From Actinomycetota bacterium (GTDB lineage: Bacteria > Actinomycetota > Actinomycetes > S36-B12), in NCBI GenBank assembly GCA_046046455.1, contig JBJOJS010000095.1, forward strand, positions 1,995 through 65,994: a DNA stretch of 64,000 bases, written 5' to 3'. This document shows, in pieces, positions 2,208-18,400 of this stretch (its first letter is position 1; each line of letters opens with the position of its first letter). Position numbers and translations under genes: made by a program. The notes under the pieces are model-generated. The model was not told the DNA's origin, searched no databases, and saw only the letters and a list, made by a program, of their open reading frames with translations.

Positions 2208-2329
2208 GTGATCCCCTAGTGAACGAAGGCCAACCTCCTTGGCTGACGCGGCAACCCTGGCCGCTGTGTCCTACGCGCAAGGGACTCTCACATGAACTTC
2301 AGCGGTCGCGTTTCTGAAGGTACAACTCC

Positions 2330-3790
2330 CTACGGCGGAGTAGGACGTGCTCTCAAGCCGGACAGTTTGCGCCCCGAAATCTCGTCCAGGGACTTGCCTG
2401 CCGGCTCGATCTTGAAGGCCTGCGTGATGATGAGTGCCAGGATGCAGATCCCCGCCATGCCGAAGACGAGGGCAGGGATGCCGATGGCCTCCTGGAGGAT
2501 CGGGAAGAAGAAGACGCCCAGGGCCGCCCCCAACTTGGCGGCGCCAGCCGCGAAACCGTGCCCCGCAGCCCGGATGTCCGAGGGGAAGATCTCCGCTGGC
2601 AGCGCGTATGTCGTCGCATTGGGACCGGCGTTCATGAAGAAGTTGAAAATCGCGAAGCCGAGGAAGACGAGCCCGAGATAGCCCGTGCCCTCGGGGCCCT
2701 GGAGTACCGACGACACCCCGAGGATGACGAGGCCGACAGCCATGAAGACGAAGCCGGTCGTCTGCAGGCGAATCCGACCCCATCGCTCCACGAGGAAGAT
2801 GGCGGCGGCGAAGCCGAGCACGAGGAAGATGTCGAGTACCGCGGTCCACTCGGTCGAAGCGATATCGTCCGCGATGAAGTTGGTGTTGGACTTGTCCTGA
2901 TTGCCGCCGAAGGCCAGCGCCGCGATCAGGGTGGGCGTGAAGATACCGACCCCATAGGTCGCGATGTCCATGAGGAACCACGGCACGGATGTGAAGATCG
3001 TGCGCCTGATCATGTCGGGCTTGAAGAGTTGAGGCTGCCAGAGCGCCTGGATCCCCTCCGATGACTGCTCTGCCTTCTCCCGATCCTTGTCCGTGATGAC
3101 CACCGGGACGTTCGTGAGCTCCTCGACGACCTTGATCGCCTCATCCTCGTGGCCATTCTGGGCGAGCCAACGCGGACTCTCCGGGACTCTTCGCCTGAGC
3201 AGGATGATGACCAGGGCGGGCACGATCCCGAAGCCGAGCATCCATCGCCATGACGTCTCGTAGGGCAGCAGGAGGAGCACACCCACACCCACCAGGGCGC
3301 CCAGGAGCATGCCCACCGCCTGCAGCGAGAACGCCGACACCAGCCAACGGCCGCGATTCTTCTGCGGAAGCACCTCGGCGAGATAGGACGCCGCGATCGG
3401 GTAGTCCAGCCCGATGGCAATGCCGAGCAGGAAGCGGAAGGCGATCAGCGACCAGGTGTCCCAGGCCACCATGCACCCGATGGAGAACACGACGAACATC
3501 CACAGGTCGTACTTGAAGATGCGGCGTCTGCCGAGCTTGTCTCCCAGCGGCCCGAGCACGGCCGCACCGAACATCGCTCCCACGATGGCTGCCGCGGAGA
3601 TGAGTCCCTTCTGCCACGCGTTGGCGCCGAGATCCTCGGAAATGAGGGGATTGGCCACGCCGATGATGAAGAAGTCGAACCCGTCGAGCATGATGCCAAG
3701 GCCGGCAAGGAGCCAGAACTTCTTATGCAGGCGCGTCATGCGCGCCTGGTCCAGCGCCTTGCCGAGGGGAATGGCCTGGGCATCACTCAC
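2330..3790 (-). CDS. MFS transporter, sugar-porter / PHS (Pho84)-like
   Basis: 486 aa, 12 TM-like segments. Has a GDKLGRRRIF loop, PESPRWL, and GIAIGLDYPIAASYLAE (the D-Y-P signature seen in PHS/YaaU-type members). Confidence 0.75.
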   Translation of the reverse strand: MSDAQAIPLGKALDQARMTRLHKKFWLLAGLGIMLDGFDFFIIGVANPLISEDLGANAWQKGLISAAAIVGAMFGAAVLGPLGDKLGRRRIFKYDLWMFVVFSIGCMVAWDTWSLIAFRFLLGIAIGLDYPIAASYLAEVLPQKNRGRWLVSAFSLQAVGMLLGALVGVGVLLLLPYETSWRWMLGFGIVPALVIILLRRRVPESPRWLAQNGHEDEAIKVVEELTNVPVVITDKDREKAEQSSEGIQALWQPQLFKPDMIRRTIFTSVPWFLMDIATYGVGIFTPTLIAALAFGGNQDKSNTNFIADDIASTEWTAVLDIFLVLGFAAAIFLVERWGRIRLQTTGFVFMAVGLVILGVSSVLQGPEGTGYLGLVFLGFAIFNFFMNAGPNATTYALPAEIFPSDIRAAGHGFAAGAAKLGAALGVFFFPILQEAIGIPALVFGMAGICILALIITQAFKIEPAGKSLDEISGRKLSGLRARPTPP

Positions 3791-3841
3791 GGCGACAACC
3801 TAGGAAGTCCCACCAGCATGTGGCTAGGCCTCACACCGAAC

Positions 3842-3868
3842 CTTCACCCTCGTCCCCGAATGTTCACC
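3842..3868. promoter_or_regulatory. Candidate PHO-box-like direct repeat (TTCACC x2)
   Basis: cTTCACC at about 3842 and gTTCACC at about 3862, in the 87-nt gap between the pstB stop and the MFS start. The core matches the Streptomyces PHO-box GTTCACC, but the 20-nt spacing is not a multiple of 11. Confidence 0.2.
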
Positions 3869-3877
3869 TACTGCGGA

Positions 3878-4696
3878 TCAGCCGAAGCGGCCGTTCACGT
3901 AATCGAAGGTGCGCGGGTCCTGCGGCTCACCAAACATCAGGTCGGTGGGGCCGTGCTCCACGATGTGGCCCGGCTGGCCATGCTCGGCAAGGAAGAAGGC
4001 ACACGTCTGCGACACGCGCTGGGCTTGCTGCATGTTGTGGGTCACGATGACGATGGTGACCTCCTCGCGCAACTCCCCGATCGTCTCCTCGATGCGCCTC
4101 GTCGACGTCGGGTCCAGAGCCGAACAGGGCTCGTCCATGAGGAGGACCTTGGGCTTGATTGCCAGCGACCGAGCGATGCACAGGCGCTGCTGCTGGCCGC
4201 CGGAGAGGCCGCCACCGGGTGCGCGCAGGCGGTCCTTGACCTCCTTCCAGAGGCCTGCCTTGGTGAGGCAGTGCTCGACCAGCTCATCCTTCTCGTCGCC
4301 GCTGGCGTGCACACCGTTGAGCTTGAGCCCCGCGATGACGTTGTCGTAGATGCTCATCGCCGGGAAGGGGTTGGGCTTCTGGAAGACCATGCCGATCTGC
4401 CTGCGGGCATCGGTGATGCGGACGTTGGGCGCGTAGATGTCCTCGCCGTCGAGCAGCACCTCCCCCGCGATACGGGCGCTCACCACGAGCTCGTGCATGC
4501 GGTTGAGGGACCGAAGGAAGGTGGACTTGCCGCAGCCGGAGGGCCCGATGAGAGCGGTGACCTCCCCCGCGGGCATGAGCAGTGAGACTCGATCCAGAAC
4601 CAGGTGCGTGCCGAACCAGCATGAGATGTCGATGGCGTGCAGCGAGAAGAGCTGGGGAGCCGCGGCCGTCGAGGTGTCGTCGATCGTCATCGTCAT
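3878..4696 (-). CDS. pstB: Phosphate ABC transporter ATP-binding protein PstB
   Basis: 272 aa. Walker [18 protein letters not shown] signature, and the PstB-typical [10 protein letters not shown] and [10 protein letters not shown] motifs. GGAAG SD 8 nt upstream. Confidence 0.95.
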
Positions 4697-4709
4697 CGCA
4701 GTCTTCCGT

Positions 4710-5633
4710 TCAGAGGAGGTTGGGCAGGAGTCGGAGGGCGCTCATCGATGCCATGATCCCCGCGAAGAACACGATGGGGGCGGCCACGAGCCAGGCCTGC
4801 CACTTGCCCCAGCGGATGACCAGCCAGACGGTCGCCACCGCGACGACGAGGAGGAGTTGCAGCCACAGCAGCAGCGGCACCAGGCCGGCAGGGTCGCCGG
4901 CCATCGCCTGCTCCGCGGGATCGAGGGCGGCTGCGGTGATGACGCGAGGAGGCGCGGGCTGCGCGGGGGTCACCAGGTCGGCGTCGACGCGCAGCAGATC
5001 CGTGGGCATGAAGCGCGGCCCCATGGCCGTCACGAGCGTCAACCGACCCTGACCTGCCGCCACGGGCGCCGGCAGCGGATCACCGGGGCGACGAACCCCG
5101 ACGACGCGGTACTCCGCAGGGCCCTGACCCGTGGTGGCGACGATGGTCATGCCGGGCTGAAGGATCTCCAACTGCCCGAAGGGTCCACCGAAGGCTGCCT
5201 GCCGCCCGTAGATCACCGAGGTGCCGGGCTGGCCGGGGAGCACGGTGTCGCGCTTGTGCCCGGGACCGCTTTGGGTGACGGTCGAGGTCGTGCCCTCGAC
5301 CACGACCTCCTTCATCCCGAGGTCGGGGATCTCCAGGACGGCCACGGGGGCACCGGGTCGCAGGAGTGCGCCGTTGACATCGGTCTGACCCACCGGGGCA
5401 ATCGCGTTGGCAAGTTCGCTGCGGAAGTCGGAGTAGAGGACCTCCTGATCACGCGCATGCACGAGCTGGCTCACGATGAGCAGGTTGGCCAGGAAGCCCA
5501 GGCAGAGGATCGCGAACGCAAGCAGGACGCTGATCACAAGGAACTTCGGAGACTGCACTACAGACAGGGTCGAGTCGGCGCTGTCTGCCGATCCGGCTTC
5601 CACGACCTCAGGCTCGCGATCCATCACGCTCAT
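4710..5633 (-). CDS. Sortase-fold membrane protein lacking the catalytic His and Cys (pseudo-sortase)
   Basis: 307 aa with an N-terminal TM and 2 C-terminal TMs. The core [65 protein letters not shown] follows the class E sortase layout. It reads YGRQ where AGHR is expected and TLVTA where TLxTC is expected. Its ATGA start overlaps the upstream gene's stop. Confidence 0.6.
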
Positions 5634-6517
5634 GATCCCACGCTCACCGATTCGTCGGACGAAATTTCATGGCGCCGTCCGCGCCAGTAGGCGTAGGCAG
5701 CACCGAGGATGAGAAGGGCACCCGCCACGAGCGCGATCATCCGCCATGACGAGTCCTCGGAGGTCGGTGACGCGCTCGAGGAGGACGTCCCCGTCAGTGC
5801 CACGGCGGTCGGGTCGCTGCCCGTCACTTCCTGAGCGGGCAGAGCGGCATCCTCGGCACCCGGATCTGCGGCGCCCGCACTGCCAGCTGCCTGACCACCC
5901 TCTCCTGAGCCGCTGCCCGACTGATCCCTCTCCTGACCCTGCGACCCAGCACCCGAGGACTCCTGGGCCGCATCGGATGTCGAGTCGGATCCCGCATCGC
6001 CAGGCACAGTCGCGGAAGACTCCTGGGCAGGGTCGGGAGTGGACACGAACTCCGCCACCGGCGTCGCGGCTGCCCCCAGAGCGACGTAGCTATCGCCCTT
6101 GATGCGCAGCGCACCCGTGAAGGTCTGCAGGTCCTGCAGGTCGAGGCGATTGCGACAGGCGAAGACGAGGTCGTAGGTGCCCTTAGGAGTGCTCACGCCA
6201 TGGGAGACGAAGAACTCCCGCAGGGTACGGGCCAGTGGCACCGCATGATGCCCCGGGTAGATCGCCGGCTCGAGTACAGCGAGCTCCGTGTTGCCGACGG
6301 CGTTGCCCGCCGTCACAGGATCGATGCCCGCGCCGCGGACAGCCACGACGAAGGTGACTCCCTGCGAGCACACACCCGAGGTCACGACGTCCATGGGGGT
6401 GTCCAAAGTGCCTTCGGCAGGGACGATCGCCAACGTCCCCTCACCCGCTGCGGACGCCGGCGAAGCCCAGGAGAGCACCGCGAAGCACGCGACCGCGGCC
6501 GCAACTGCCTTCCTCAT
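5630..6517 (-). CDS. Secreted protein: Cys-pair N-domain, acidic Ser/Gly stalk, C-terminal TM anchor
   Basis: 295 aa. Signal peptide ...SPASAAGEG, a roughly 100-aa low-complexity D/E/S/G/Q stalk, then WRMIALVAGALLILGAAYAYWRGRRHE. GAGGAG SD. The N-domain is paralogous to 6580..7377. Confidence 0.6.
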   Translation of the reverse strand: MRKAVAAAVACFAVLSWASPASAAGEGTLAIVPAEGTLDTPMDVVTSGVCSQGVTFVVAVRGAGIDPVTAGNAVGNTELAVLEPAIYPGHHAVPLARTLREFFVSHGVSTPKGTYDLVFACRNRLDLQDLQTFTGALRIKGDSYVALGAAATPVAEFVSTPDPAQESSATVPGDAGSDSTSDAAQESSGAGSQGQERDQSGSGSGEGGQAAGSAGAADPGAEDAALPAQEVTGSDPTAVALTGTSSSSASPTSEDSSWRMIALVAGALLILGAAYAYWRGRRHEISSDESVSVGS

Positions 6518-6535
6518 CCCGGCTCCTCGTGGTGC

Positions 6536-6572
6536 GAGTGGGACCGGGGCATGAGATGCCCCGGTCCCACTC
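6536..6572 (-). other. Intercistronic 17-bp perfect stem-loop inside the operon
   Basis: GAGTGGGACCGGGGCAT gag ATGCCCCGGTCCCACTC. It lies in the 62-nt gap between the stop at 6580 and the start at 6517. No T-tract follows, and the next gene's SD comes directly after it. Confidence 0.55.
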
Positions 6573-6579
6573 GGTGGAA

Positions 6580-7377
6580 CTACTTCTTGGCGATGGTGAC
6601 ACTCGCCGAAGCGGTGCCATCGGTATAGCCGTCCGCCTTGGCCGTGACCGTGACGGTGACCTTCTTACCCTTGTCAGCAGCCGCCACCTTGTAGGTGTTC
6701 TTGGTGCTGACGACCTTGGTGCCGACCTTCCACGAGTAGGCGTAGGAGGTGGGCGTGGTCGACCAGGTGCCATTGCTCACCTTGAGGGTCTGGCCTGCCT
6801 TGGCCGTGCCGGTGATCTTCGGCTTCGTGACGTTGGTGATCGGCGACGGCGCACCCTCCTTGAACGTGAGGGTGGCTCCGTCGATGATCGTCACCGTGGT
6901 CGAGAAGGACGAAATCGCCTTCGGGTCGAGCTTGGCGCGGCACTCCAGCGTGAGGGTGTAGGCCCCACTCGGAAGCTTGGCGTCCTTGTTCTCCGCCTTG
7001 ACCATGCTGAAGAGCTTGCTCAGCGGTGTGCGGATCGGCGAGGTCGACTCACCGGAGGACCCCGCGGCCGAGAGCGCCGTGTTGCCCACCATGTAGTTGA
7101 CGTCCTCGTACGTCGGCCCCGTGGAGCCTGGGCCGGGGACGGCGTACTGCACGCCCGCACCCGTCAGCTTGACCACGAAGTGCGTGGCCGAGGCATCGGA
7201 GCAGCCGGCCGAGGTGACGACGGATACCGGGTCAGCCCCGGTGCCCGACGACGGCTCGAGCTTCAGCGTGCCCGTGGTGCCCGCACTCGCCGCAGGGGCC
7301 ACGAGGGCCATGCCTGCGGCAGCGAGTGCGGTGGCAGCCAGGGCCGCTGCGCCCGCGCGCATGATTCGAATGCTCAT
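6580..7377 (-). CDS. Secreted protein: Cys-pair N-domain plus Ig-like C-terminal repeat (no anchor)
   Basis: 265 aa after trimming to the ATG at 7377 (AAGGAGAA SD). Signal ...VAPAASAGTTG. The N-domain aligns with 5630..6517. The C-terminal KITGTAKAGQTLKVSNGTWSTTPTSYAYSWKVG..VTVTAKADGY is a typical actinobacterial Ig-like surface repeat. Confidence 0.6.
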   Translation of the reverse strand: MSIRIMRAGAAALAATALAAAGMALVAPAASAGTTGTLKLEPSSGTGADPVSVVTSAGCSDASATHFVVKLTGAGVQYAVPGPGSTGPTYEDVNYMVGNTALSAAGSSGESTSPIRTPLSKLFSMVKAENKDAKLPSGAYTLTLECRAKLDPKAISSFSTTVTIIDGATLTFKEGAPSPITNVTKPKITGTAKAGQTLKVSNGTWSTTPTSYAYSWKVGTKVVSTKNTYKVAAADKGKKVTVTVTAKADGYTDGTASASVTIAKK

Positions 7378-7406
7378 GTCATTTTCTCCTTGGTCTGCGC
7401 GTCGGA

Positions 7407-8405
7407 TTAGCTGCGGCTCGAGGTGTCGCCGCAGGTGGTCGCCAGCACGCCGAAGCCCTGCTGAGCGATGACTGCGGACTGCTTGCACACCAGCGAGTCC
7501 TTGCCGACGAAGACCTGGTACTCCTTCGACGCGGTGTCGGTGACCTTCGTGGTCGGGACGACGTTGAAGACGTCGCGGCTGTAGACGCTCGAGGTGTTGA
7601 GCAGGGTGGGAGCCTGGTCGCCCAGGACACCCAGCACGCTCATGCCGCGACGATCGGGGGCAGCGCCTGTGGCCTGCGCCTGCCAGACGGCGATCGAGTA
7701 GGGCTGGATCTCGTTGGCCTTGAGCTGGCGACCGTCGTGCTCCTGCGTGTACTCAGCCCCGGTGCCGCCCGCCGACTTGGGCTTGAGGCAGGGGTAGGTG
7801 CCCGCGGTGATCTGGTCCTCGGTGATGCCGAAGCGACCGAGCCAGTAGGAGCGCGTGCCCGAGCCCGCCTGCGGGAGCACCGGCACGATGCTGGTGTTCT
7901 CGCACTTGTAGATCGAGGTGAGCTCGGCGACGCTGAGCGACTTCGGCACCGAACCGTCGGAGCGCACCGCGAAGGTCACAGCATCCTTGGCGAAGGGGAT
8001 CCAGGTGTAGCCGGTCGGAGACGAGGAGCTCTTCGCCGAGGACGACCGGGCGAACTGGATGCAGCCGTCGCCCGCCTTGACGCTGGCGTCGAGCACCTTG
8101 ACGCCGTTGCTGGAGCCGTTGGCCGCCGCACGGGTGAAGGTGCACTTGGCGTCGGCCTTGGTCTGGAAGGTCTCGGTCGTGCTCGAGCTCGCGTTGTAGG
8201 AGCCGATGACCTTGACGTCGTTGATCTTCACGACCTGCGACAGGGCCTGGACGAGGTCCATGGTCGTGTCCGAGCCGACACCGACGAGGTCGCGGTACTG
8301 GGGCGGACCATCCGGGTCTGCGGACGCGGTGGGGATGACGGCCAGCATGAGGCTGAGCGCGCCGGCGCCCGCCGCGGCCGCGATGAGTGCCTTCTTTGCG
8401 TTCAC
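7407..8405 (-). CDS. PstS-family (PBP-like 2) periplasmic-binding-domain protein, secreted, no lipobox
   Basis: 332 aa, GTG start with AAGGAAAGGGA SD. Sec signal ...IPTASADP. Motifs GVGSDTT, ANGSSNGV, FARSSS and PQAGSGTR correspond to PstS-type anion-binding loops. Confidence 0.65.
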   Translation of the reverse strand: MNAKKALIAAAAGAGALSLMLAVIPTASADPDGPPQYRDLVGVGSDTTMDLVQALSQVVKINDVKVIGSYNASSSTTETFQTKADAKCTFTRAAANGSSNGVKVLDASVKAGDGCIQFARSSSAKSSSSPTGYTWIPFAKDAVTFAVRSDGSVPKSLSVAELTSIYKCENTSIVPVLPQAGSGTRSYWLGRFGITEDQITAGTYPCLKPKSAGGTGAEYTQEHDGRQLKANEIQPYSIAVWQAQATGAAPDRRGMSVLGVLGDQAPTLLNTSSVYSRDVFNVVPTTKVTDTASKEYQVFVGKDSLVCKQSAVIAQQGFGVLATTCGDTSSRS

Positions 8406-8419
8406 TGTGTTCCCTTTCC

Positions 8420-10972
8420 TTACGGTGTCCGACGCGGTTCCGCGACGGGGTCTGTGGATCCTGCGAGGGCAGGAGTGGTGGAGCGCATGAGCCGCTGGCC
8501 CAGCACGGCAGCGACGAGCAGGGCAGCACCTCCGGCGATGAGCAACAGCACAGCGAGGTAGCGGACGAGGCCGACGGGCGTCGTCGGTGTCGTAGGCAGT
8601 GCCGCGGCCACGAGCGAGTCATCGACCGACACCGCAGCGGTCTCCTCGACGACGACCTCCTCCTCGGACGTCGTCTCCTCGACCACCGTCTCGGTGTCGC
8701 CCGAGGCGTCGGTGGTCTCGGTCACGGTCGTGGTGTCCGTGTACGTCGTATCGGTGTACGTCGTATCGGTATACGTCGTATCGGTTGTCACGTCCGTTGT
8801 CGTATCGGTGGTGATGTCCGTCGTCGTATCGGTCGTGGTGTCCGTGGTCGTGCCCGATCCGCCATCGTCGGGAATCGGCTTGCCGGCCTGCTTGACGATC
8901 GCCGCGGCCACCTTCGTGGCGGCAGCGCGTGCGTCCTCGGGGAGGGGGACGTAGCCCGGGGGCAGCTGTCCGGTGGAATCGCCCACCACCTGCCCGGGGC
9001 CCACGGCGTAGTCGATGAATCGGGCGTACTCCGCCGCAGCGGCCTTCGTGAGGCTCGGCGGCGACGTCATGGCATAGACGAACGAAGCGAGGGGGTAGGC
9101 CCCTGCCACCTTCTTGCCGGGGTCGGGCTGCTCGATCTCCTTGACCTCGGTCGGCACAGCGGCAGACCCTGCCTTGCTGATGGACTGGTCCGTAGGGGCG
9201 ATGTACTCGCCATCCGCATTGCGCAGCAGAGCGGCGTTCAGCGCGAAGCGGCCGGTGAGTGCGGAGTCGGTCAACGTGATGATCGCTCGCTTGCCGGGCT
9301 CCTGAGCGGGGGTGCGCTTGTTGCCCGGCGGGATGGCGGTCGGGTCGTAGATGCCCGTTGACAGGGTGTCGCCTCGGCTGGCCGCCCGTGCCCCCGAGTA
9401 GAGGTCGGCGGAGTAGGGCACGAGATCGAAGGTGCACATGGGCACGACGCGGTCCGCGTAGGTGACGCACACGTTATCGGCGCGAGGGAAGTCCGAGCGC
9501 GGGAACGTCGTCTTCTTGTAGACCGGGTTGATCTTGGTGCCCCAGGGATCTTCCTTGCCCTCGAGGAAGGCCCGGGCATCCTTGTCGGCCCAGATCCACT
9601 CCCACACCAGTCGCGCAGTGTCCGAATCACCCGAGGGCGTCATGATGTGCCCGAGAGCGGGGATGCGGAGTTCCTTGAACTGCGGATTCAACTCCAGGAA
9701 CTCCGGGTCGGTGGCGAGGTCCCAGGGGTTGTCCTCGACGCGCTTGGGGTCAGGGGCGGCGTCGTAACGATAGGTCTGCGTGAGCAGCTTGGCCACGAGA
9801 CGCTGGTTGAGCTTGATGCCCGCAAGACGCTGGCCGTCACGTGCACGCACGGACTCAGGAGCCAGGCTTGAGGACTGGCTCTCGAGATTGAAGGAGATCG
9901 TGACACCCGACAGGGCGATCGGGGCGTAGACCACCGGATGCTGCGGGCTCACCGCCTCGGGGGCTAGGCCGCGCTCGACGAAGGTGAGATCCGGCGCCGG
10001 GCTCTGGGACTTCTGTCGAGCGGCTTCATCGCTCAGGGCCACGAAACTGAAGTTGCCGTCGCCGTCGGCGCAGAGAGTGGGCTGCCACCGGCTGACCGCC
10101 TCGGCAATCCGATCGGTCCCGAGGAGGGGAATCTCGTCGCGCCCGATCGGGCAGGCAAGGCCGATGGGCTGGAACTCCATCGGGAAGACGATGCGATGGG
10201 CCCAGTTCGATGCGGACAGCGGTGTCGTGTCGAGGGGATTGCCCGTGTTGGTGCCCCGCACCGATCCGTCGACCTCGGTCTTGCCCCGGGGCACGACCAC
10301 CAGCCAGCACAGCGGCGTCTCGCCGTCGCGGGTCTGCCCGCAGCCCAGGCCCGGTGACTCGACACCCGTCTGGACCTCGAAGTACTCCTCGCCCGTGCCA
10401 TCCGGGCGGATGCGAGCGTGATTGACCTCGTTGGAGGTGTAGCGGTCGAAGAATTCGCTCTTCGGGCCGGTCGACGTCTTGCCGGTCCATGACTCGAAGG
10501 GGATGTAGGAGATCCCGTCGACATTCCAGTCGGGATTGTCCTTCTCCTTGGGATCGACGACACCGCTCGTGGTGAGCTGCCGCGAGTTGGTGTTCTGACC
10601 GCCGTTCCATGCGCGCTGGCCGCCGTATTGGCACTTCTCGCGCGGGGGACCATCCTCGGCGGTGCCTCCCCAGCACTGCATGATCTGGAGATAGTTGATG
10701 CCGAGGTTGCCGAACTCCGGCTTCGTGGGCTGCCCACCCGTCCACGAGATCCGGACCACCTGATTGACGAGGTCCTGGGTCTGGCTCACGGTGACCTTGA
10801 GGTCCGCGAAATCGCCCTTGCCGGACTTGGTGACGGCGCTGTCGGTGTTGCGCACATGCACGGTACCGTCACGACCGACGTCGGATGCCCCCGCGATCGG
10901 CGCCATGGCGATGAAGGCGCCGGACGCGATCATGGCCAGGCCCGCGGCCGACGCAAGCGACTTGCGGATCAT
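8420..10972 (-). CDS. Large surface protein: Cys-rich N-domain, divergent PstS-like domain, Thr/Asp repeat stalk, C-terminal TM anchor
   Basis: 850 aa with signal ...APIAGASDV. About 270 aa form a Cys-rich domain of unknown family. The central region has PBP-like features (YPLASFVYAMT, FIDYAVGPGQ, PPGYVPLP). Then come TTTDTTTDTTTDITTD...TTYTDTTYTDTTY and the anchor YLAVLLLIAGGAALLVAAVLGQRLMR. ATGA overlap with the upstream gene. Confidence 0.65.
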   Translation of the reverse strand: MIRKSLASAAGLAMIASGAFIAMAPIAGASDVGRDGTVHVRNTDSAVTKSGKGDFADLKVTVSQTQDLVNQVVRISWTGGQPTKPEFGNLGINYLQIMQCWGGTAEDGPPREKCQYGGQRAWNGGQNTNSRQLTTSGVVDPKEKDNPDWNVDGISYIPFESWTGKTSTGPKSEFFDRYTSNEVNHARIRPDGTGEEYFEVQTGVESPGLGCGQTRDGETPLCWLVVVPRGKTEVDGSVRGTNTGNPLDTTPLSASNWAHRIVFPMEFQPIGLACPIGRDEIPLLGTDRIAEAVSRWQPTLCADGDGNFSFVALSDEAARQKSQSPAPDLTFVERGLAPEAVSPQHPVVYAPIALSGVTISFNLESQSSSLAPESVRARDGQRLAGIKLNQRLVAKLLTQTYRYDAAPDPKRVEDNPWDLATDPEFLELNPQFKELRIPALGHIMTPSGDSDTARLVWEWIWADKDARAFLEGKEDPWGTKINPVYKKTTFPRSDFPRADNVCVTYADRVVPMCTFDLVPYSADLYSGARAASRGDTLSTGIYDPTAIPPGNKRTPAQEPGKRAIITLTDSALTGRFALNAALLRNADGEYIAPTDQSISKAGSAAVPTEVKEIEQPDPGKKVAGAYPLASFVYAMTSPPSLTKAAAAEYARFIDYAVGPGQVVGDSTGQLPPGYVPLPEDARAAATKVAAAIVKQAGKPIPDDGGSGTTTDTTTDTTTDITTDTTTDVTTDTTYTDTTYTDTTYTDTTTVTETTDASGDTETVVEETTSEEEVVVEETAAVSVDDSLVAAALPTTPTTPVGLVRYLAVLLLIAGGAALLVAAVLGQRLMRSTTPALAGSTDPVAEPRRTP
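8735..8852 (-). repeat. In-frame tandem repeats (15-nt x3 plus degenerate 12-nt units) encoding the Thr/Asp stalk
   Basis: gtacgtcgtatcggt is repeated 3 times from about 8741, followed by gtcgtatcggtg-like units. These encode YTDTT and TTDT repeats. Confidence 0.7.
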
Positions 10973-12669
10973 GCGTCACCGCCGGTGCGCTTGGCTGCCA
11001 TGTAGCGCGCCACGAGTGGCGGGGCGAAGAGCAGGGCCAGCACGACGACGAACGTCGCGACCAGCAGACCCGTGTAGGGACCCCAGCCTGAGCTTGCCTC
11101 GGTCGACACCGGGATCCCGGCGACGTAGGCGCCGCCCGTCACGCCTGTGGCCGCCGCGGCCGCGGCCGGATCGACGATGACCTCGCCCGTCGTCGGGTCG
11201 ACGGCTGTCGGATCGGCCGCGATGACCTGACCGGTCTCGGGATCCACGACAACGGCCGCGCCTCCCGCATCGACGGTGACGTCGGTCACAGCCCCGCCGG
11301 CGGTGCCTCCCCCCGTCGTGCCTCCCCCTGACGTCGTGCCGCCGGTCGTGCCCCCGGTCGTGCCGCCACCCGAACCACCACCCGAACCACTACCCGAACC
11401 TCCACCGGAACCACCGCCGGCTGCGCCACCCTCAGCAGCCGTGCCGCACTGGGTCGGACCCTTGGCGTCACACGCCGGAGGCTGGGGCGCGGTCTTGGCG
11501 AGGGTGTTGGTGCCATCCGCGGAGAAGGTGGGGTTCTTGCAGTTCGCGATGTTGATGTTCTCCGGGATAGCCCCGGGAATGCGCTTGATCTGATCGAAGC
11601 CCGCCTTGACCAGATTGATCGGCAGCGGCGAGTACCCCAGGGCATCGGCCTGCTGCTGACCCTGGCAGAGGAAGTAGTTGGCGAAGTCCGCGAGGGTGTT
11701 GCCCTTCTCATTGCTGAAGCCGTTGTCCAGGCTCGTAGGGATCACCATGTAGCTGTACGACGAGAGCGGGTAGGCCCGCTTGTCGCTGCTGGCGTAGACA
11801 CCGCTGAGGTTGGACGTCAGGTCCGAATTGATCTTGGCACCCAGAAGTCCCACGGCGACAGCCTCCGCCGTCGGCAGGACGTAGTAGCCTGACTTGTTCA
11901 GCACCTTCGCGGCGGGGAAACCCGCAGCCTTGGCGTAGGAGTACTCGACGTACGTGATGGCCCCGACGCTCTGATCCTGCTTGACATAGCCGGAGACACC
12001 GAGCGAGCCACTCTGCGCGACGAAGCCAGGGCCGCTCGGGAAGTTCGAGGTGAAGCCGCACGGGGTGCCGCGACCGACCTTCTGGCAGTAGGCATTCCAG
12101 ATGTCGGGGTACATCGCGGCAAGCCACGCCGTGAACTGGGCCGTCGTACCGGAGCCGTCCGAACGCACGACCGGGACGACCTTGATGGGAGGCAGGGTCA
12201 GGCCGGGGTTGTCGGCCTTGATCGCCGCGTCATCCCACTTCGTGATGACGCCCGTGAAGATCTTGGCGATCGTGTCACCCGAGAGCCGAAGCTGCGTGAC
12301 GCGGTTGGGCCCGATCTTGAGGTTGTACATGAACGCCGTGCCACCGGCGACGATCGGCATGTAGGCGAAGGGACGCGTCGGCAACGGATCGACGACGCTG
12401 CCGTCCTTCAGGCCGTAGGGGATCTCAGAGACCGCGAAGTCGACGGTCCCGTTGCGGAACTGGTTGCGGCCATCCGAGGAGCCCGATGCCTGGTAGTCGA
12501 TACGCATGCCGTACTGGTTGACGTTGCGTCGCCACTGGTCCATGGCGTTCGCGCTCCAGGTCGAGCCCGAGCCGGACACGGGCACGTAGCTGGCGGCTGA
12601 CGCCGGCAGGATGGGGCTTACGAGCACGGCGCCGAGGGCAAGGACGACGACGCTGAGGACGCGCTTCAT
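10969..12669 (-). CDS. pstS: Phosphate-binding protein PstS domain with Gly/Thr stalk and C-terminal TM anchor
   Basis: 566 aa with Sec signal ...ILPASAASY and no lipobox Cys. PstS motifs SGSGSTWS, ASGSSDGRNQF, DFAVSE and RSDGSGTT. A Gly/Ser/Thr-rich low-complexity stalk is followed by LLVATFVVVLALLFAPPLVARYMAAKR. ATGA overlaps at both ends. Confidence 0.8.
   Translation of the reverse strand: MKRVLSVVVLALGAVLVSPILPASAASYVPVSGSGSTWSANAMDQWRRNVNQYGMRIDYQASGSSDGRNQFRNGTVDFAVSEIPYGLKDGSVVDPLPTRPFAYMPIVAGGTAFMYNLKIGPNRVTQLRLSGDTIAKIFTGVITKWDDAAIKADNPGLTLPPIKVVPVVRSDGSGTTAQFTAWLAAMYPDIWNAYCQKVGRGTPCGFTSNFPSGPGFVAQSGSLGVSGYVKQDQSVGAITYVEYSYAKAAGFPAAKVLNKSGYYVLPTAEAVAVGLLGAKINSDLTSNLSGVYASSDKRAYPLSSYSYMVIPTSLDNGFSNEKGNTLADFANYFLCQGQQQADALGYSPLPINLVKAGFDQIKRIPGAIPENINIANCKNPTFSADGTNTLAKTAPQPPACDAKGPTQCGTAAEGGAAGGGSGGGSGSGSGGGSGGGTTGGTTGGTTSGGGTTGGGTAGGAVTDVTVDAGGAAVVVDPETGQVIAADPTAVDPTTGEVIVDPAAAAAATGVTGGAYVAGIPVSTEASSGWGPYTGLLVATFVVVLALLFAPPLVARYMAAKRTGGDA
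11295..11435 (-). repeat. Low-complexity triplet repeats encoding the Gly/Ser/Thr stalk
   Basis: Runs of ggtcgtgcc / acccgaacc units. Coordinates are approximate. Confidence 0.5.
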
Positions 12670-13943
12670 CGGGAGTCTCCGAAGTCGAGGGATCGGGGGC
12701 TAGACGAAGGTCCCGCGGCAGCCTCCTGCGATGCCACCCGAGAGGCCTCGCGCTTGGTGAACCTTTGGGAATCCTCGCGTGAACGCTTCGCCCGACGCTT
12801 CTGCTGGGACTTCGACAGATTGCCGGGGCCACGGCCGCCGATGATGCGGGCGATGATGAAGAGGATGAGGACCAGGAACATCAGCACGGCCGCCGTACCG
12901 AATCCGCGGGCGATCATCGTGGGCTCGGGCGACTTGACGAACTCGAAGGTCGCCAGGGGCAGGGAGACCATCGGGCCCGTCGTCGGGTTGAGGTTGAGGG
13001 CCGCGGTGAAGCCTGCGGTCAGTAGGACGGGCGATGTCTCACCGACCCCGCGTGCGGTGCCGAGGATGATAGCGGTCATCAGACCCGAGCGAGCGGTGGG
13101 CAGCGTGACGTGCCACACGGTCCGCCACTGCCCTGCCCCGAGGGCGTAGGCCGCTTCCTTGAGGTTGCCCGGCACGAGTCGGAGGACGACATCGGAGGCA
13201 CGGATGATGATGGGAAGCATCATCACGCTGATCGCCATAGCCGCGGCGAGCCCGGACTTGTCGAATCCAAGGATGAGGATGAGTGACGCGTAGATGAACA
13301 GACCCGCAACGATGGAGGGCAGTGCGGTCATCGCCTCGGAGATGGTGCGCACGAATCGGGCGAAGGGCCCCGGGATCTCGTTCATGTAGACCGCGCAGGC
13401 CACCCCGAGGGGGATCACGATCGCGAGCGCGATGGTGATCATGATGAGGGTGCCGAGGATCGCGTGGAGGATGCCACCGGCCGTTAGCGGATCGAGCGGG
13501 CCGGCATTCTGCATGTCCTGCGTGAAGAAGTTGAGGTTCGTGAGCGCTTCCCAACCGCGGATCACCGTGAAGCTGACGACGAAGATGAGCGCCATCAGCA
13601 GTGTGAAGGCCAGGCTGTGGATGAGCACGGCCGCGAGGCGGTCCTTGACGGCCGAGAAGTCCTCGTCCAGGGACACGAGTACGGCGTAGAGCGCTACGAA
13701 GCCCAAGTAGGCGACCGCGAGGAAGCCGAGCCACCCGCTGAAGGGCAGCAGGGTGAAGAGCAGCGCGGCGAAGCCGACGCCGGCGACGGCGGCGCCGGAG
13801 AGCGACAGCACGTCCGACCGGCGGAAGCCGCCGATGCGGCGCGGCTTGAGATCCGGCGGGGTCGGAGTGCGCTGCGGCAGCGTGGTCTTGCGCCCAGTCG
13901 TGCCCGAGGCGAGCTTGTCGAGGTCGTCGATGGAGGCGGTCAT
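12666..13943 (-). CDS. pstA: Phosphate ABC transporter permease PstA
   Basis: 425 aa. PstA-type core with ALGAGQWRTVWHVTLP and GTARGVGETSPVLLTAGF, plus a long N-terminal extension. The start lies 1 nt after the pstC stop. Confidence 0.9.
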   Translation of the reverse strand: MTASIDDLDKLASGTTGRKTTLPQRTPTPPDLKPRRIGGFRRSDVLSLSGAAVAGVGFAALLFTLLPFSGWLGFLAVAYLGFVALYAVLVSLDEDFSAVKDRLAAVLIHSLAFTLLMALIFVVSFTVIRGWEALTNLNFFTQDMQNAGPLDPLTAGGILHAILGTLIMITIALAIVIPLGVACAVYMNEIPGPFARFVRTISEAMTALPSIVAGLFIYASLILILGFDKSGLAAAMAISVMMLPIIIRASDVVLRLVPGNLKEAAYALGAGQWRTVWHVTLPTARSGLMTAIILGTARGVGETSPVLLTAGFTAALNLNPTTGPMVSLPLATFEFVKSPEPTMIARGFGTAAVLMFLVLILFIIARIIGGRGPGNLSKSQQKRRAKRSREDSQRFTKREASRVASQEAAAGPSSSPRSLDFGDSR

Positions 13944-13944
13944 G

Positions 13945-14997
13945 TCAGTCGGCCGTCGATGCGCCGGATCGCGACCTCGCCACGATGGAGGAAGCGATGA
14001 AGTTGACGATGAGCGTGATGATGAAGAGCGCGAGGCCCGCAGCCATGAGGGCCGAAGTGCCGAACGGCGTGGCTTCGCCGTAGCGGAGCGCGATGAGCGC
14101 CGAGACCGAGTTGGTGCCGTTCTGCAGGATGTGCGGCTGGAAGACGAAGACCGGCGAGATGATCATGAAGACCGCGATGGTTTCACCGAGTGCTCGGCCC
14201 AGGCCGAGCATCGTGCCGCCGATCATGCCGCCCTTGCCGAAGGGCAGGACGACGGAGCGGATCATGCCCCACTTGGTCGCGCCCAGGGCGTAGGCGCCTT
14301 CGCGCTCGCCGACAGGCGCCTGCGAGAAGACCTCGCGCATGACCGACGTCGTGATGGGGGCGACCATGAGCGCGACGACGATGCCGGCGATGAACGTCGA
14401 GGACGTGAAGACCGTCGCGGTGGACAGCGGATCATTGGGATCGCTGCCGTCGACGGCGAAGATGGGGATCCAGCCGAAGTAGGTGGAGATCCATCGAGCC
14501 AAGCCGATGATCTGGCCCTGGAGGAAGAAGAACCCCCACAGACCGAAGACCACGCTGGGGACCGCGGCCATGAGATCGACCAAGCTGATGAGCGTCTGCT
14601 TGATCTTGCGAGGGCTGTACTCCGAGATGTAGAGCGCGACACCGGTCGAGAGCGGGACGGCGAAGAAGATCGCCGTGAGCGCGATGAGGACGGTGCCGCT
14701 GAGCACGGCCGCGATGCCGAAGTTGCCACCGTCAGGCTCCCAGGCCTGCGTGGTGATGAAGGAGAAGCCCGCCTGGCTGAGCGCTTGCAACGCGCGAATC
14801 GTCAGGAAAATCCCGACGAGGGCCATGATGAGCAGCACGAGCGCCCCGCTGGCACTCACACCACCTCGGAAGAAGCGATCGCTCTGACTACGTGTGGTGG
14901 TGAGTTGACGGGGCTCGACCGAGGCCGCGTCATCGTCGTGGCGCGGTGGGAGGAAGGTCGTGGCCACGGACGGGACTCTTTCCACCCTTGCTGACAC
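13945..14997 (-). CDS. pstC: Phosphate ABC transporter permease PstC
   Basis: 350 aa, GTG start. Has EGAYALGATKWGMIRSVVLP and GLGRALGETIAV motifs. First gene of the operon; no pstS lies upstream. Confidence 0.9.
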   Translation of the reverse strand: MSARVERVPSVATTFLPPRHDDDAASVEPRQLTTTRSQSDRFFRGGVSASGALVLLIMALVGIFLTIRALQALSQAGFSFITTQAWEPDGGNFGIAAVLSGTVLIALTAIFFAVPLSTGVALYISEYSPRKIKQTLISLVDLMAAVPSVVFGLWGFFFLQGQIIGLARWISTYFGWIPIFAVDGSDPNDPLSTATVFTSSTFIAGIVVALMVAPITTSVMREVFSQAPVGEREGAYALGATKWGMIRSVVLPFGKGGMIGGTMLGLGRALGETIAVFMIISPVFVFQPHILQNGTNSVSALIALRYGEATPFGTSALMAAGLALFIITLIVNFIASSIVARSRSGASTAD

Positions 14998-15032
14998 CGT
15001 CTCGACAGCGGCCCGAACACCACCTTTCGACT

Positions 15033-15102
15033 AGGTGAACGACTGGATTCACTCGAGTCGTACACGGGCACTGGGTCCAGATGACGCACAGGTGAACGAA
15101 GC
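15033..15102. promoter_or_regulatory. Candidate Pho-regulator sites (GTGAACGA x2) in the divergent pstC / HD-gene region
   Basis: GTGAACGAC at about 15035 and GTGAACGAAG at about 15092. These read GTTCAC on the pstC strand. The same 10-mer GTGAACGAAG occurs at about 2219 upstream of the PhoX-like gene. Confidence 0.3.
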
Positions 15103-15727: not shown

Positions 15728-15800
15728 CAGACAGCGCTCCTTCATCGAGTGTTCATCCTGAGGGCGAGCGCACGCCACCTCGGGCGTGTGACATGCGGCC

Positions 15801-17501: not shown

Positions 17502-17505
17502 GGCG

Positions 17506-17988: not shown

Positions 17989-18026
17989 ACCTTGCCAACT
18001 GAATCGACACCTGTCAATATGGATTC

Positions 18027-18377: not shown

Positions 18378-18400
18378 CCGCACCGGAGTAGTCTCTGCCG

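What the first reader, a model, noticed from the sequence alone, without database searches (positions are those of the whole stretch)
3878..14997. pst phosphate-transporter operon split by a six-gene cell-surface module (pstC-pstA-[6 genes]-pstB)
Seen directly. On the minus strand the gene order is:
- pstC (13945-14997)
- pstA (12666-13943)
- PstS domain on a stalk with a TM anchor (10969-12669)
- 850-aa surface protein with a second, divergent PstS-like domain (8420-10972)
- third PstS-like binding protein (7407-8405)
- two paralogous secreted proteins (6580-7377 and 5630-6517)
- sortase-fold protein without its catalytic residues (4710-5633)
- pstB (3878-4696)

Junctions are tight. There are ATGA overlaps at pstA/pstS, at pstS/850-aa and at 5630-gene/sortase-like. 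The other gaps are 14, 29, 62 and 13 nt. The ATPase of the transporter can therefore only be expressed by reading through the surface module.

Established knowledge: the canonical arrangement is pstS-pstC-pstA-pstB(-phoU), with PstS a lipoprotein in Gram-positives. Here no pstS precedes pstC, no phoU is in the window, and none of the three PstS-like proteins has a lipobox. Four other binding or secreted proteins in this window do (LLVAC, ALSAC, LSAC, VLTAC).

Inference: this is a dedicated phosphate, or phosphate-polymer, capture apparatus displayed beyond the wall and feeding PstCAB. I do not recognise it as a described system.
Basis: partly seen in the sequence, partly recalled or inferred. 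Interest (0 to 1): 0.8.

Follow-up and report, generated by a model that had tools for sequence, protein, structure and literature searches.

The report
Phosphate transporter operon with built-in surface module
A phosphate-uptake operon carries six cell-surface genes between its membrane and ATPase genes; the same nine-gene order recurs in every adequately flanked relative among the 80 examined, from at least 581 actinobacterial species, and I found no description of it.

Summary
On the minus strand, 3878-14997 encodes pstC, pstA, a stalked PstS with a C-terminal membrane anchor, an 850-aa protein, a third PstS-like protein, two paralogous secreted proteins, a sortase-fold protein and pstB. 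The junctions are as tight as stated.

It is not a lineage accident. At least 581 species genomes encode the 850-aa protein. In the 80 loci examined, every one with enough flank has the same genes in the same order and strand, from Nanopelagicales to Streptomyces, Actinoplanes and Amycolatopsis.

New points:
- The stalked PstS keeps seven of eight phosphate ligands, with a family-wide Asp56-to-Glu change.
- The 850-aa protein has a PstS fold but has lost the binding residues.
- The sortase-like protein lacks Cys and His in all 150 family representatives.
- The two paralogues share a new 130-aa Ig-like domain. In mycelial relatives it is joined to WxL, WxLIP or LAxTG wall anchors.
- PhoP-type PHO boxes precede pstC.

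Best reading: a phosphate-starvation-induced, envelope-embedded phosphate acquisition complex, comparable in logic to the Isd haem relay. I found no description of it. I rate it a new variant of a known kind. Its function is untested.

The parts
15076..15097 (-). PHO-box-like operator, two 11-nt direct repeat units (GTTCACCTGTG | CGTCATCTGGA), about 80-100 nt upstream of the pstC start
   Evidence: Read directly. The units match the Streptomyces PhoP consensus G(G/T)TCAYYYR(G/C)G in 10 of 11 and 9 of 11 positions; the consensus is taken from PMC2275107. The GTTCA core is conserved in 9 related loci whose flanks are otherwise diverged.
15008..15040 (-). Second PHO-box-like site: GTTCACCTAGT, a weak middle unit, then GTTCGGGCCGC (repeat cores 22 nt apart)
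   Evidence: In 72 related loci, GTTCAY-N16-(G/C)TTCAY pairs occur at 0.31 per kb in the 900 nt upstream of pstC and at 0.014 per kb elsewhere. The 22-nt-spaced upstream pairs (19 of the 20 found) are all on the operon strand.
13945..14997 (-). pstC, permease (350 aa)
   Evidence: TIGR02138 scores 249.6 bits against a cut-off of 196. Hydropathy gives about 6-7 membrane segments.
12666..13943 (-). pstA, permease (425 aa), with about 98 extra N-terminal residues (two extra hydrophobic segments) and a charged tail of about 55 residues
   Evidence: TIGR00974 scores 211.5 bits against a cut-off of 193. The core, residues 99-370, aligns to E. coli PstA 9k3s_A residues 25-291. Extra membrane segments lie at 45-63 and 72-90.
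10969..12669 (-). S1: stalked PstS (566 aa). Signal peptide without lipobox; PstS domain about residues 26-365; Gly/Thr/Ala-rich stalk; membrane helix 535-553 ending in PPL and basic residues
   Evidence: TIGR00975 scores 231.4 bits against a cut-off of 205. It aligns to E. coli and Xanthomonas PstS. The ligand residues Thr10, Ser38, Arg135 and Ser139-Gly140-Thr141 are kept. Asp56 is Glu in 74 of 76 family members and Phe11 is Trp in 75 of 76. In the tail, 'PV[ST]' occurs in 57 of 74 and 'PP[LVIMAF]' in 74 of 74.
8420..10972 (-). X850: 850-aa surface protein. Signal peptide; Cys-rich beta-rich N-domain (about 45-280) with no recognised family; PstS-fold domain (285-692) without the phosphate ligands; Thr/Asp-rich disordered stalk (706-796); membrane helix (804-829)
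   Evidence: AlphaFold model: pLDDT 83.5, pTM 0.79. Foldseek matches PstS structures at E about 1e-12 and target-normalised TM 0.74-0.80; every match at E <= 0.001 is a binding-protein-fold structure (PstS, DING or related, plus one MBP-fusion entry). hhalign against the S1 family gives 97.5% probability; Thr10 maps to Asp, Ser38 to Asp, Arg135 to Gly, and the Ser-Gly-Thr loop is deleted. More than 1640 homologues were found and none has a Pfam domain on record.
7407..8405 (-). S3: secreted short-type PstS-like protein (332 aa), no membrane anchor, six conserved Cys
   Evidence: PBP_like_2 scores 38.6 bits against a cut-off of 27. The family (77 sequences) conserves the GSDTT, RSSS and GSGTR motifs. 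No match to solved structures by sequence.
6580..7377 (-). P1: secreted protein (265 aa) made of a P-domain and one Ig-like domain
   Evidence: Paralogous to P2. AlphaFold model pLDDT 81.7, two beta-sandwich domains. Only generic tandem Ig/FnIII matches in the PDB. P-domain alignment A4 has an invariant Cys pair plus two Gly and a Tyr.
5630..6517 (-). P2: P-domain, acidic low-complexity stalk, C-terminal membrane helix (260-278) and basic tail (295 aa)
   Evidence: Relatives carry 2-4 or more P-domains in their P proteins, joined to WxL, WxLIP_PGBD or LAxTG/LPxTG signals.
4710..5633 (-). Pseudo-sortase (307 aa): N-terminal membrane helix, sortase fold, two C-terminal membrane helices, conserved C-terminal 'LLPNLL'
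   Evidence: Pfam Sortase scores 48.6 bits against a cut-off of 26.6. The class E sortase model scores only 56.9 bits against a cut-off of 160. In 64 operon-linked sequences the His site is Arg and the Cys site is Ala, Gly or Thr. In 150 representatives at 50% identity the His site is Arg 147 / Lys 3 and there is never a Cys.
3878..4696 (-). pstB, ATPase (272 aa)
   Evidence: TIGR00972 scores 337.1 bits, E 5e-101. The best solved relative is E. coli PstB, 9k3x_C, at 253 bits.

Best explanation
This is one conserved transcription unit encoding a phosphate-starvation-induced phosphate acquisition complex that is built into the cell envelope.

**Proposed working parts**
- PstC, PstA and PstB form an ordinary type I ABC importer.
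- Its cognate receptor is S1, a true PstS. S1 is not a lipoprotein. It is tethered by a C-terminal membrane helix on a flexible stalk of about 170 residues.
- S3 is a second, soluble, anion-binding PstS relative.
- X850 (a PstS fold that has lost its ligand site, plus a Cys-rich N-domain) and the Ig-like P-domain proteins form a scaffold in or on the wall. This scaffold holds the binding proteins near the permease.
- The sortase-fold protein is not an enzyme. I propose that it binds the conserved C-terminal anchor segments of S1, X850 and P2 (and the LAxTG proteins in relatives) and organises them in the membrane next to PstCA.

**What is shown**
- The gene set and gene order.
- Conservation of the cassette across relatives.
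- The retained or lost ligand and catalytic residues.
- The predicted folds.
- The presence of PHO-box-like repeats.

**What is inferred**
- That phosphate is the substrate.
- That the proteins form a complex.
- That ligand is relayed between them.
- The role of the pseudo-sortase.
For: 1. **Same order and strand everywhere.** pstC-pstA-S1-X850-S3-P1-P2(n)-pseudo-sortase-pstB is found in every locus with enough flank among the 80 related loci plus two more. These span Nanopelagicales, Mycobacteriales, Streptomyces, Kitasatospora, Actinoplanes, Amycolatopsis, Lentzea, Marmoricola and Motilibacter.
2. **S1 is a true PstS.** It passes the PstS equivalog cut-off and keeps Thr10, Ser38, Arg135 and Ser139-Gly140-Thr141.
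3. **S3 keeps anion-site motifs.** GSDTT, RSSS and GSGTR are conserved in 77 sequences.
4. **PHO boxes.** Repeats matching the PhoP consensus lie upstream of pstC. They are footprinted in 9 close relatives and are 22-fold enriched upstream of pstC across 72 loci.
5. **Phosphate-related neighbours.** A PhoX-like protein and a phosphate:H+ symporter-like MFS transporter lie here; GDPD and PhoX lie next to the cassette in a Mycobacteriales genome.
6. **Envelope placement.** All five module proteins have signal peptides. Three have C-terminal membrane helices behind disordered stalks. Relatives add WxL (29.5 bits against 25), WxLIP_PGBD (37.6 bits against 27.3) and LAxTG/LPxTG sorting signals to the same P-domain proteins.
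7. **The pseudo-sortase is under selection.** It has its own invariant residues although it lacks Cys and His.
8. **The anchors are conserved.** S1 and X850 have conserved motifs before and at the end of their membrane helices.
Against: - No experiment and no transcript data exist.
- Free phosphate diffuses through peptidoglycan, so a stalked receptor is not obviously needed for uptake.
- S1 carries family-wide changes at two ligand positions (Asp56 to Glu, Phe11 to Trp). These could alter specificity.
- The PHO-box assignment rests on similarity to the Streptomyces consensus. The strict repeat pattern was found in only 20 of 72 loci.
- Nothing tested here shows that the proteins touch each other or PstCA.
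- The window's version lacks the WxL, WxLIP and LAxTG wall anchors of its relatives, so its wall association is weaker than theirs.
- Promoters inside coding sequence cannot be excluded.
Confidence: 0.55

Rival explanations
1. The transporter imports something other than orthophosphate. Candidates are arsenate-discriminated phosphate, a phosphate ester, pyrophosphate or polyphosphate ends, or another oxyanion. On this reading the altered S1 pocket and the extra binding proteins set that specificity.
For: - The Asp56-to-Glu and Phe11-to-Trp changes are fixed across the S1 family. From established knowledge of PstS structures, Asp56 is the residue that reads the protonated oxygen of phosphate.
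- S3 is a second, different binding protein.
- Arsenic-resistance genes (aquaglyceroporin, ArsI/CadI, ArsR, arsenate reductase) lie next to the cassette in three separate lineages.
Against: - S1 scores above the curated PstS equivalog cut-off and keeps seven of eight ligand positions.
- PstC, PstA and PstB are typical Pst proteins.
- The ars adjacency is absent from Streptomyces, Actinoplanes and most other loci.
Confidence: 0.2
2. The six genes are mainly an adhesion or surface-remodelling module of the WxL/Csc type, switched on by phosphate starvation. The PstS-fold domains would act as adhesins for phosphate-bearing particles or surfaces rather than feeding the transporter. Sharing an operon with pst would serve co-regulation only.
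For: - Relatives carry WxL, WxLIP_PGBD, Ig-like domains and LAxTG proteins, the cast of firmicute WxL clusters that are thought to link cell wall and host or substrate surfaces.
- X850 cannot bind phosphate in the canonical way.
- The P proteins are generic Ig/FnIII arrays like those of adhesins.
Against: - S1 is the only PstS in the operon and sits directly after pstA with overlapping codons, so at least one module gene is the transporter's receptor.
- The module is never found apart from pstCA and pstB in the 80 loci.
- The window's version has lost the wall-binding domains but keeps all the binding proteins.
Confidence: 0.15
3. The arrangement is a historical accident: a surface-protein cluster inserted into a pst operon, with no functional coupling.
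For: The module proteins are of a kind (Ig-like, WxL, sortase-related) that elsewhere forms independent clusters.
Against: - Order and strand are identical in every informative locus across several actinobacterial orders.
- At least 581 species carry the marker protein.
- Start and stop codons overlap.
- Family-specific conserved residues occur in S1, X850, S3 and the pseudo-sortase.
Confidence: 0.03

Closest known systems
Canonical PstSCAB high-affinity phosphate transporter (E. coli; Streptomyces pstSCAB; M. tuberculosis pst clusters)
   Same: - PstC, PstA and the PstS domain pass the curated cut-offs, and PstB falls just under its cut-off.
- The best solved relatives are the chains of the E. 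coli PstSCAB complex, 9k3s and 9k3x.
- PHO-box-like repeats lie upstream, as at Streptomyces pstS.
   Different: - The gene order is pstC-pstA-[six genes]-pstB rather than pstS-C-A-B.
- PstS is not a lipoprotein. It is tethered by a C-terminal helix on a long stalk.
- Asp56 is Glu.
- PstA has two extra N-terminal membrane segments and a charged tail.
- There are five extra secreted or anchored proteins and a pseudo-sortase.
- The 2021 review of phosphate transport in Streptomyces and relatives does not mention such a system.
Isd haem-uptake system of Staphylococcus aureus (isdC-D-E-F-srtB-isdG). This comparison is from my own knowledge and was not tested here.
   Same: - An ABC importer operon that also encodes wall-associated receptor proteins and a sortase-family protein.
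- The wall proteins are thought to pass ligand inward to the membrane binding protein.
   Different: - Isd uses NEAT domains, a catalytically active sortase B, a lipoprotein binding protein and a different transporter class.
- Here the sortase-like protein is inactive, and the receptors are PstS-fold and Ig-like proteins.
- This is an analogy of logic only. No homology is implied.
WxL / Csc cell-surface clusters of Firmicutes (WxL proteins, WxLIP = DUF916 + DUF3324 + membrane helix, small LPXTG protein)
   Same: In mycelial relatives the P proteins carry a C-terminal WxL domain, a WxLIP_PGBD (DUF916) domain with a C-terminal membrane helix, and a small LAxTG/LPxTG protein. This is the same cast.
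   Different: - The published definition needs at least one full WxLIP and two WxL proteins (PMC10599100). Relatives show one WxL and one PGBD-only protein.
- The window has none of these domains.
- WxL clusters are not described inside ABC transporter operons or in Actinomycetota in the paper read.
Class E sortases of Actinomycetota (SrtE; structures 5uus, 5go5, 5cuw)
   Same: The sortase fold; the conserved GPGH and PGxxG motifs; the N-terminal membrane anchor.
   Different: - The catalytic His is Arg and the catalytic Cys is Ala, Ser, Thr, Gly or Val throughout the family. The catalytic Arg position is not conserved.
- It has two extra C-terminal membrane helices.
- It scores 56.9 bits against a cut-off of 160.
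- NCBI nonetheless names these proteins 'class E sortase' or 'sortase'.

Membership tests
PstSCAB phosphate ABC transporter | PstC and PstA permeases and PstB ATPase of the Pst subfamilies | tested here: met
   TIGR02138 scores 249.6 bits against 196. TIGR00974 scores 211.5 against 193. TIGR00972 scores 337.1 against 343, marginally under, with E 5e-101. The best PDB matches are E. coli PstA and PstB.
PstSCAB phosphate ABC transporter | A PstS binding protein with the phosphate ligand set (Thr10, Phe11, Ser38, Asp56, Arg135, Ser139, Gly140, Thr141 in E. coli numbering) | tested here: inconclusive
   S1 scores 231.4 bits against a cut-off of 205. Six positions are identical. Asp56 is Glu and Phe11 is Trp, both fixed across the family. 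Binding was not measured.
PstSCAB phosphate ABC transporter | Canonical operon order pstS-pstC-pstA-pstB(-phoU), with PstS a lipoprotein in Gram-positives | tested here: not met
   The order is pstC-pstA-S1-X850-S3-P1-P2-pseudo-sortase-pstB. There is no lipobox. No other pst gene lies in the window; phoU was not searched for.
PstSCAB phosphate ABC transporter | Induction by phosphate limitation through PhoP/PhoR | not testable with these tools
   Only PHO-box-like repeats could be shown.
Sortase (cysteine transpeptidase) | Sortase fold or domain | tested here: met
   Pfam PF04203 scores 48.6 bits against 26.6. It aligns to 5uus and 5go5.
Sortase (cysteine transpeptidase) | Catalytic His-Cys-Arg triad (TLxTC motif) | tested here: not met
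   The His site is Arg in 147 and Lys in 3 of the 150 representatives. The Cys site is never Cys. The Arg site is variable.
WxL cell-surface cluster | At least one WxLIP (PGBD + HBD + membrane helix) and two WxL-domain proteins within a few genes of each other (definition in PMC10599100) | tested here: not met
   The window proteins have no WxL or WxLIP hit. Relatives have one WxL protein and one WxLIP_PGBD protein.
Anchored-repeat ABC transporter system of Actinobacteria (TIGR03769 domain proteins) | TIGR03769 repeat domain above its cut-off | tested here: not met
   P1 scores 13.8 bits against a cut-off of 30.9, E 0.066.

The most novel reading that the evidence does not exclude
The cassette is an envelope-spanning phosphate relay peculiar to Actinomycetota. 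In it a catalytically dead sortase has been re-used as a receptor for C-terminal anchor signals, and assembles the other parts onto a Pst importer whose PstA carries extra helices to dock them. Those parts are a stalked PstS, a ligand-blind PstS-fold scaffold protein and the Ig-like P-domain proteins. This would be a phosphate counterpart of the Isd haem relay, and the first assigned role for a pseudo-sortase.
Probability: 0.3. Interest if true: 0.85.

Novelty: new variant of a known kind. Interest (0 to 1): 0.7.

Why it matters
Phosphate uptake by PstSCAB is one of the best-studied bacterial transport systems. It is central to the Pho regulon, which controls antibiotic production in Streptomyces and growth of freshwater Actinomycetota in phosphorus-poor lakes.

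A second, strictly conserved Pst-type cassette with five extra envelope proteins and a dead sortase, present in at least 581 species, shows that part of actinobacterial phosphorus acquisition is unexplored.

It also supplies several concrete leads:
- Three protein families with no functional assignment: the X850 N-domain, the P-domain and the pseudo-sortase.
- A natural PstS variant at the residue that discriminates phosphate from arsenate.
- A clear, testable case of pseudo-enzymes and pseudo-receptors kept under selection.
- A correction for annotation pipelines, which currently name the pseudo-sortase 'class E sortase' although it cannot be one.

Tried and rejected
- **Lineage-specific accident.** Rejected by synteny in the 80 related loci.
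- **First ORF-level synteny count.** It suggested that the sortase-like gene or S3 was missing in some Kitasatospora and Streptacidiphilus loci. This was an artefact of over-long ORFs and my overlap filter. Domain-level mapping found them in all loci.
- **Labelling error for P2.** I had first labelled the seventh gene of Streptomyces as 'P2' by position. A separate P-domain profile showed that it is a larger protein, with WxLIP_PGBD first and the P-domain later.
- **P-domain equals WxLIP_PGBD.** Rejected, because the two occupy different parts of the same Streptomyces protein.
- **X850 as a second phosphate receptor.** Rejected on ligand mapping.
- **An upstream tenth gene.** The 208-aa ORF at 15152-15778 has no similarity to the 166-aa ORF that precedes pstC in Streptomyces niveus. 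It recurs only in two close relatives.
- **Function for the X850 N-domain or the P-domain from structure.** X850 gave no PDB match beyond the PstS part. P1 gave only generic Ig/FnIII hits.
- **A PHO box between pstB and the MFS gene.** The two repeats there are 20 nt apart, not 11 or 22, so I do not count it.
- **Literature searches.** These led nowhere: sortase with pst genes, pseudo-sortase, and WxL with PstS or Actinobacteria.

Full report
**1. Observation**

Eight of the nine passed my GC3/GC2 coding filter, with GC3 of 0.84-0.93 in a 66% GC window; P2 (5630-6517) did not pass it. The junctions are as described:
- a 1-nt gap between pstC and pstA;
- ATGA overlaps at pstA/S1, S1/X850 and P2/sortase-like;
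- gaps of 14, 29, 62 and 13 nt elsewhere.

Curated models confirm the assignments:
- PstC: TIGR02138, 249.6 bits against a cut-off of 196.
- PstA: TIGR00974, 211.5 against 193.
- PstS domain in the 566-aa protein: TIGR00975, 231.4 against 205.
- PstB: TIGR00972, 337.1 against 343, E 5e-101.

Pfam finds a Sortase domain in the 307-aa protein (48.6 bits against 26.6) and PBP_like_2 in the 332-aa protein (38.6 against 27).

The three PstS-like proteins have signal peptides without a lipobox cysteine. A consensus scan found no sigma-70-like promoter and only weak, intragenic terminator-like sites in 3500-15800. No other pst gene is in the window.

**2. Conservation**

The 850-aa protein (X850) has more than 1640 homologues, and none has a Pfam domain on record. 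All of the best 80 are Actinomycetota: Nanopelagicales-like metagenome genomes, Streptomyces, Kitasatospora, Streptacidiphilus, Actinoplanes, Amycolatopsis, Lentzea, Saccharothrix, Catellatospora, Motilibacter and Marmoricola.

Gene calls in Streptomyces niveus and in a Mycobacteriales genome already showed the same nine-gene order.

Domain-level mapping of the nine proteins onto all 83 loci gives the same picture. The order is pstC, pstA, S1, X850, S3, P1, one or more further P proteins, sortase-like, pstB, all on one strand, in every locus long enough to show it. An earlier ORF-level count had suggested gaps. That was an artefact of over-long ORFs. The one odd locus (L067) lacks pstC, pstA and S1 upstream of X850 in a metagenome contig.

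**3. The parts**

*S1 (10969-12669).*
- It aligns to E. coli and Xanthomonas PstS over the whole domain.
- In 76 family members the phosphate ligands Thr10, Ser38, Arg135 and Ser139-Gly140-Thr141 are kept.
- Asp56 is Glu in 74 members and Phe11 is Trp in 75.
- Behind the domain come a Gly/Thr/Ala-rich stalk and one membrane helix.
- The tail is conserved: 'PV[ST]' lies about 15-20 residues before the helix in 57 of 74 sequences, and 'PP[LVIMAF]' plus basic residues lie at its end in 74 of 74.

*X850 (8420-10972).*
- It folds confidently (pLDDT 83.5, pTM 0.79) into a beta-rich N-domain (about 45-280), a binding-protein fold, a disordered Thr/Asp stalk (706-796) and a membrane helix.
- Foldseek matches the binding-protein part to PstS structures at E about 1e-12 and target-normalised TM 0.74-0.80.
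- Every match at E <= 0.001 is a binding-protein-fold structure (PstS, DING or related, plus one MBP-fusion entry). The N-domain therefore has no clear solved relative.
- Profile-profile alignment to the S1 family (97.5%, E 8e-12) maps the ligand positions: Thr10 to Asp, Ser38 to Asp, Arg135 to Gly, and the Ser-Gly-Thr loop is deleted.
- X850 is thus a PstS-fold protein that cannot bind phosphate in the canonical way.
- Its tail also carries a conserved motif, 'PVGxxRY', before the helix and 'GPxL.R' after it.

*S3 (7407-8405).*
- It is a short-type PstS relative without an anchor.
- In 77 sequences it conserves the GSDTT, RSSS and GSGTR motifs and six cysteines.
- From my knowledge of short-type PstS proteins, these motifs line the anion site. 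I did not test this.

*P1 and P2.*
- They are paralogues that share a domain of about 130 residues. I call it the P-domain. It has an invariant Cys pair plus two Gly and a Tyr.
- A profile of the P-domain finds two to four or more P-domains in every locus long enough to show the P-gene region.
- The P1 model (pLDDT 81.7) is two beta-sandwiches. It matches only generic tandem Ig/FnIII arrays.

*The sortase-like protein (4710-5633).*
- It has one N-terminal and two C-terminal membrane helices.
- In 64 operon-linked sequences the catalytic His position is Arg and the Cys position is Ala, Gly or Thr.
- A full search of 1.84 billion representatives gives 309 clusters at E <= 1e-30.
- In the best 150 of these the His site is Arg (147) or Lys (3), and the Cys site is never Cys.
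- The family keeps its own near-invariant residues: Gly125, Gln135, Arg144, Phe152, Arg181, Leu200, Asp217 and Pro304-Asn305.
- It is a pseudo-sortase under selection. NCBI names members 'class E sortase' or 'sortase'.

*PstA.* It has about 98 extra N-terminal residues with two extra hydrophobic segments, and a charged tail, relative to E. coli PstA.

**4. What the relatives add**

In Streptomyces, Actinoplanes, Amycolatopsis and others the P-domain is embedded in four kinds of larger protein:
- P-domain, two Big_3_5 Ig domains and a C-terminal WxL domain (29.5 bits against a cut-off of 25).
- WxLIP_PGBD (DUF916; 37.6 bits against 27.3), then the P-domain, then a membrane helix.
- A small P-domain protein ending in a true sorting signal (LASTG, LAATG, LAHTG, LAYTG, LANTG, LPITG or LPVTG), followed by a hydrophobic stretch and a basic tail.
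- P-domain plus Ig domains.

Database names agree: 'LPXTG cell wall anchor domain-containing protein' and 'WxL protein peptidoglycan domain-containing protein'.

WxL, a DUF916 protein with a membrane helix, and a small LPXTG protein make up the cast of firmicute WxL/Csc surface clusters (PMC10599100). The window's version is a reduced form. P1 is a P-domain plus one Ig domain, and P2 is a P-domain, stalk and helix, with no WxL, WxLIP or LPXTG. This supports envelope association of the module as a whole. It also shows that the conserved core consists of the binding proteins, the P-domain and the pseudo-sortase, not the wall anchors.

**5. Regulation and neighbourhood**

About 80-100 nt upstream of pstC lie two 11-nt direct repeats, GTTCACCTGTG and CGTCATCTGGA (15076-15097). 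A second site lies at 15008-15040. They match the Streptomyces PhoP repeat-unit consensus G(G/T)TCAYYYR(G/C)G in 10 and 9 of 11 positions (consensus from PMC2275107).

In nine Nanopelagicales-like loci the GTTCA cores are the only conserved blocks in otherwise diverged upstream DNA.

Across 72 loci, GTTCAY-N16-(G/C)TTCAY pairs occur at 0.31 per kb in the 900 nt upstream of pstC against 0.014 per kb elsewhere, and the 22-nt-spaced upstream pairs (19 of the 20 found) are all on the operon strand. The strict pattern is found in only 20 loci.

Downstream of pstB lie an MFS transporter whose best model is the phosphate:H+ symporter (195 bits, below its cut-off) and a PhoX-like protein. A Mycobacteriales genome has GDPD and PhoX there.

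**6. Mechanism**

Shown:
- a fixed operon;
- a bona fide Pst importer;
- one near-canonical tethered PstS;
- one further probable anion binder;
- one ligand-blind PstS fold;
- Ig-like proteins;
- a dead sortase;
- stalks and anchors;
- PHO-box-like sites.

Inferred:
- The cassette is induced by phosphate starvation.
- S1 delivers phosphate to PstCA.
- X850 and the P proteins form a scaffold in the wall that positions S1 and S3.
- The pseudo-sortase binds the conserved anchor segments and organises them beside the extended PstA.

The logic resembles the Isd haem system, in which an ABC importer operon also encodes wall receptors and a sortase. That comparison is from my own knowledge and is an analogy only.

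I put 0.55 on this reading. Rivals:
- A different or arsenate-discriminating substrate (0.2), prompted by the fixed Asp56Glu change and by ars genes beside the cassette in three lineages.
- A starvation-induced adhesion module that only shares regulation with pst (0.15).
- Accident (0.03).

**7. Novelty**

Searches of full text found nothing on this architecture. The search topics were sortase with pst genes, pseudo-sortase, WxL with PstS or Actinobacteria, and pstC/pstA/pstB with sortase. A 2021 review of phosphate transport in Streptomyces and relatives does not mention sortase or a second system of this kind. Database names are generic.

The transporter class and the idea of wall receptors feeding an ABC importer are known. 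The cassette, the pseudo-sortase family, the ligand-blind PstS protein and the P-domain are not described.

I therefore rate it a new variant of a known kind, with interest 0.7. The literature tool does not cover subscription journals, so an existing description cannot be fully excluded.

Noticed in passing
window 16749-19588: An arsenic-resistance cluster lies directly upstream of the cassette: an aquaglyceroporin (MIP, 16749-17501), an ArsI/CadI metalloenzyme (17506-17988; 183 bits against a cut-off of 116), ArsR (18027-18377) and a CynX-type MFS transporter. Homologues of these genes or of an arsenate reductase also flank the cassette in L002/L003, L004, L005, L012, L013 and L068. They do not flank it in the Streptomyces or Actinoplanes loci.
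   Followed up: partly
window 3840-3868 (+) and 2215-2225 (-): Between pstB and the MFS gene there are a GTTCACC and a CTTCACC 20 nt apart on the opposite strand. A single GTTCAC lies just upstream of the PhoX-like gene. These are possible further PhoP sites, but the 20-nt spacing does not fit the 11-nt repeat rule.
   Followed up: partly
L019 21662-22126 and L020 21488-22375: In two Streptomyces genomes a second pstC of the same subfamily (188 and 428 bits) begins about 850-950 nt after pstB. This suggests a tandem second copy of the cassette running off the end of the locus.
   Followed up: no
L067 (Pseudonocardiaceae metagenome contig): This is the only locus in which X850, S3 and P1 are not preceded by pstC, pstA and S1, although 10 kb of upstream sequence is present. 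Only a generic ABC ATPase hit lies upstream. It may be an assembly chimera or a true variant.
   Followed up: no
window 15152-15778 (-): A 208-aa ORF with coding-like GC3 (0.81) lies just upstream of the PHO boxes. It has no Pfam or NCBIfam family. It recurs only in two close relatives (L009, L013) and is unrelated to the 166-aa ORF that precedes pstC in Streptomyces niveus.
   Followed up: partly
window 20168-21556 (-): A fatty-acid-desaturase-family protein is fused to a C-terminal rubredoxin domain (462 aa). This is the arrangement seen in AlkB-type alkane hydroxylase-rubredoxin fusions.
   Followed up: no
L001 5336-5836: In Streptomyces niveus a 166-aa hypothetical gene overlaps the start of pstC. 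The PHO-box-like repeats of the Streptomyces loci lie 550-890 nt upstream of the pstC domain, consistent with a position ahead of this small gene, so those cassettes may have a tenth gene.
   Followed up: partly
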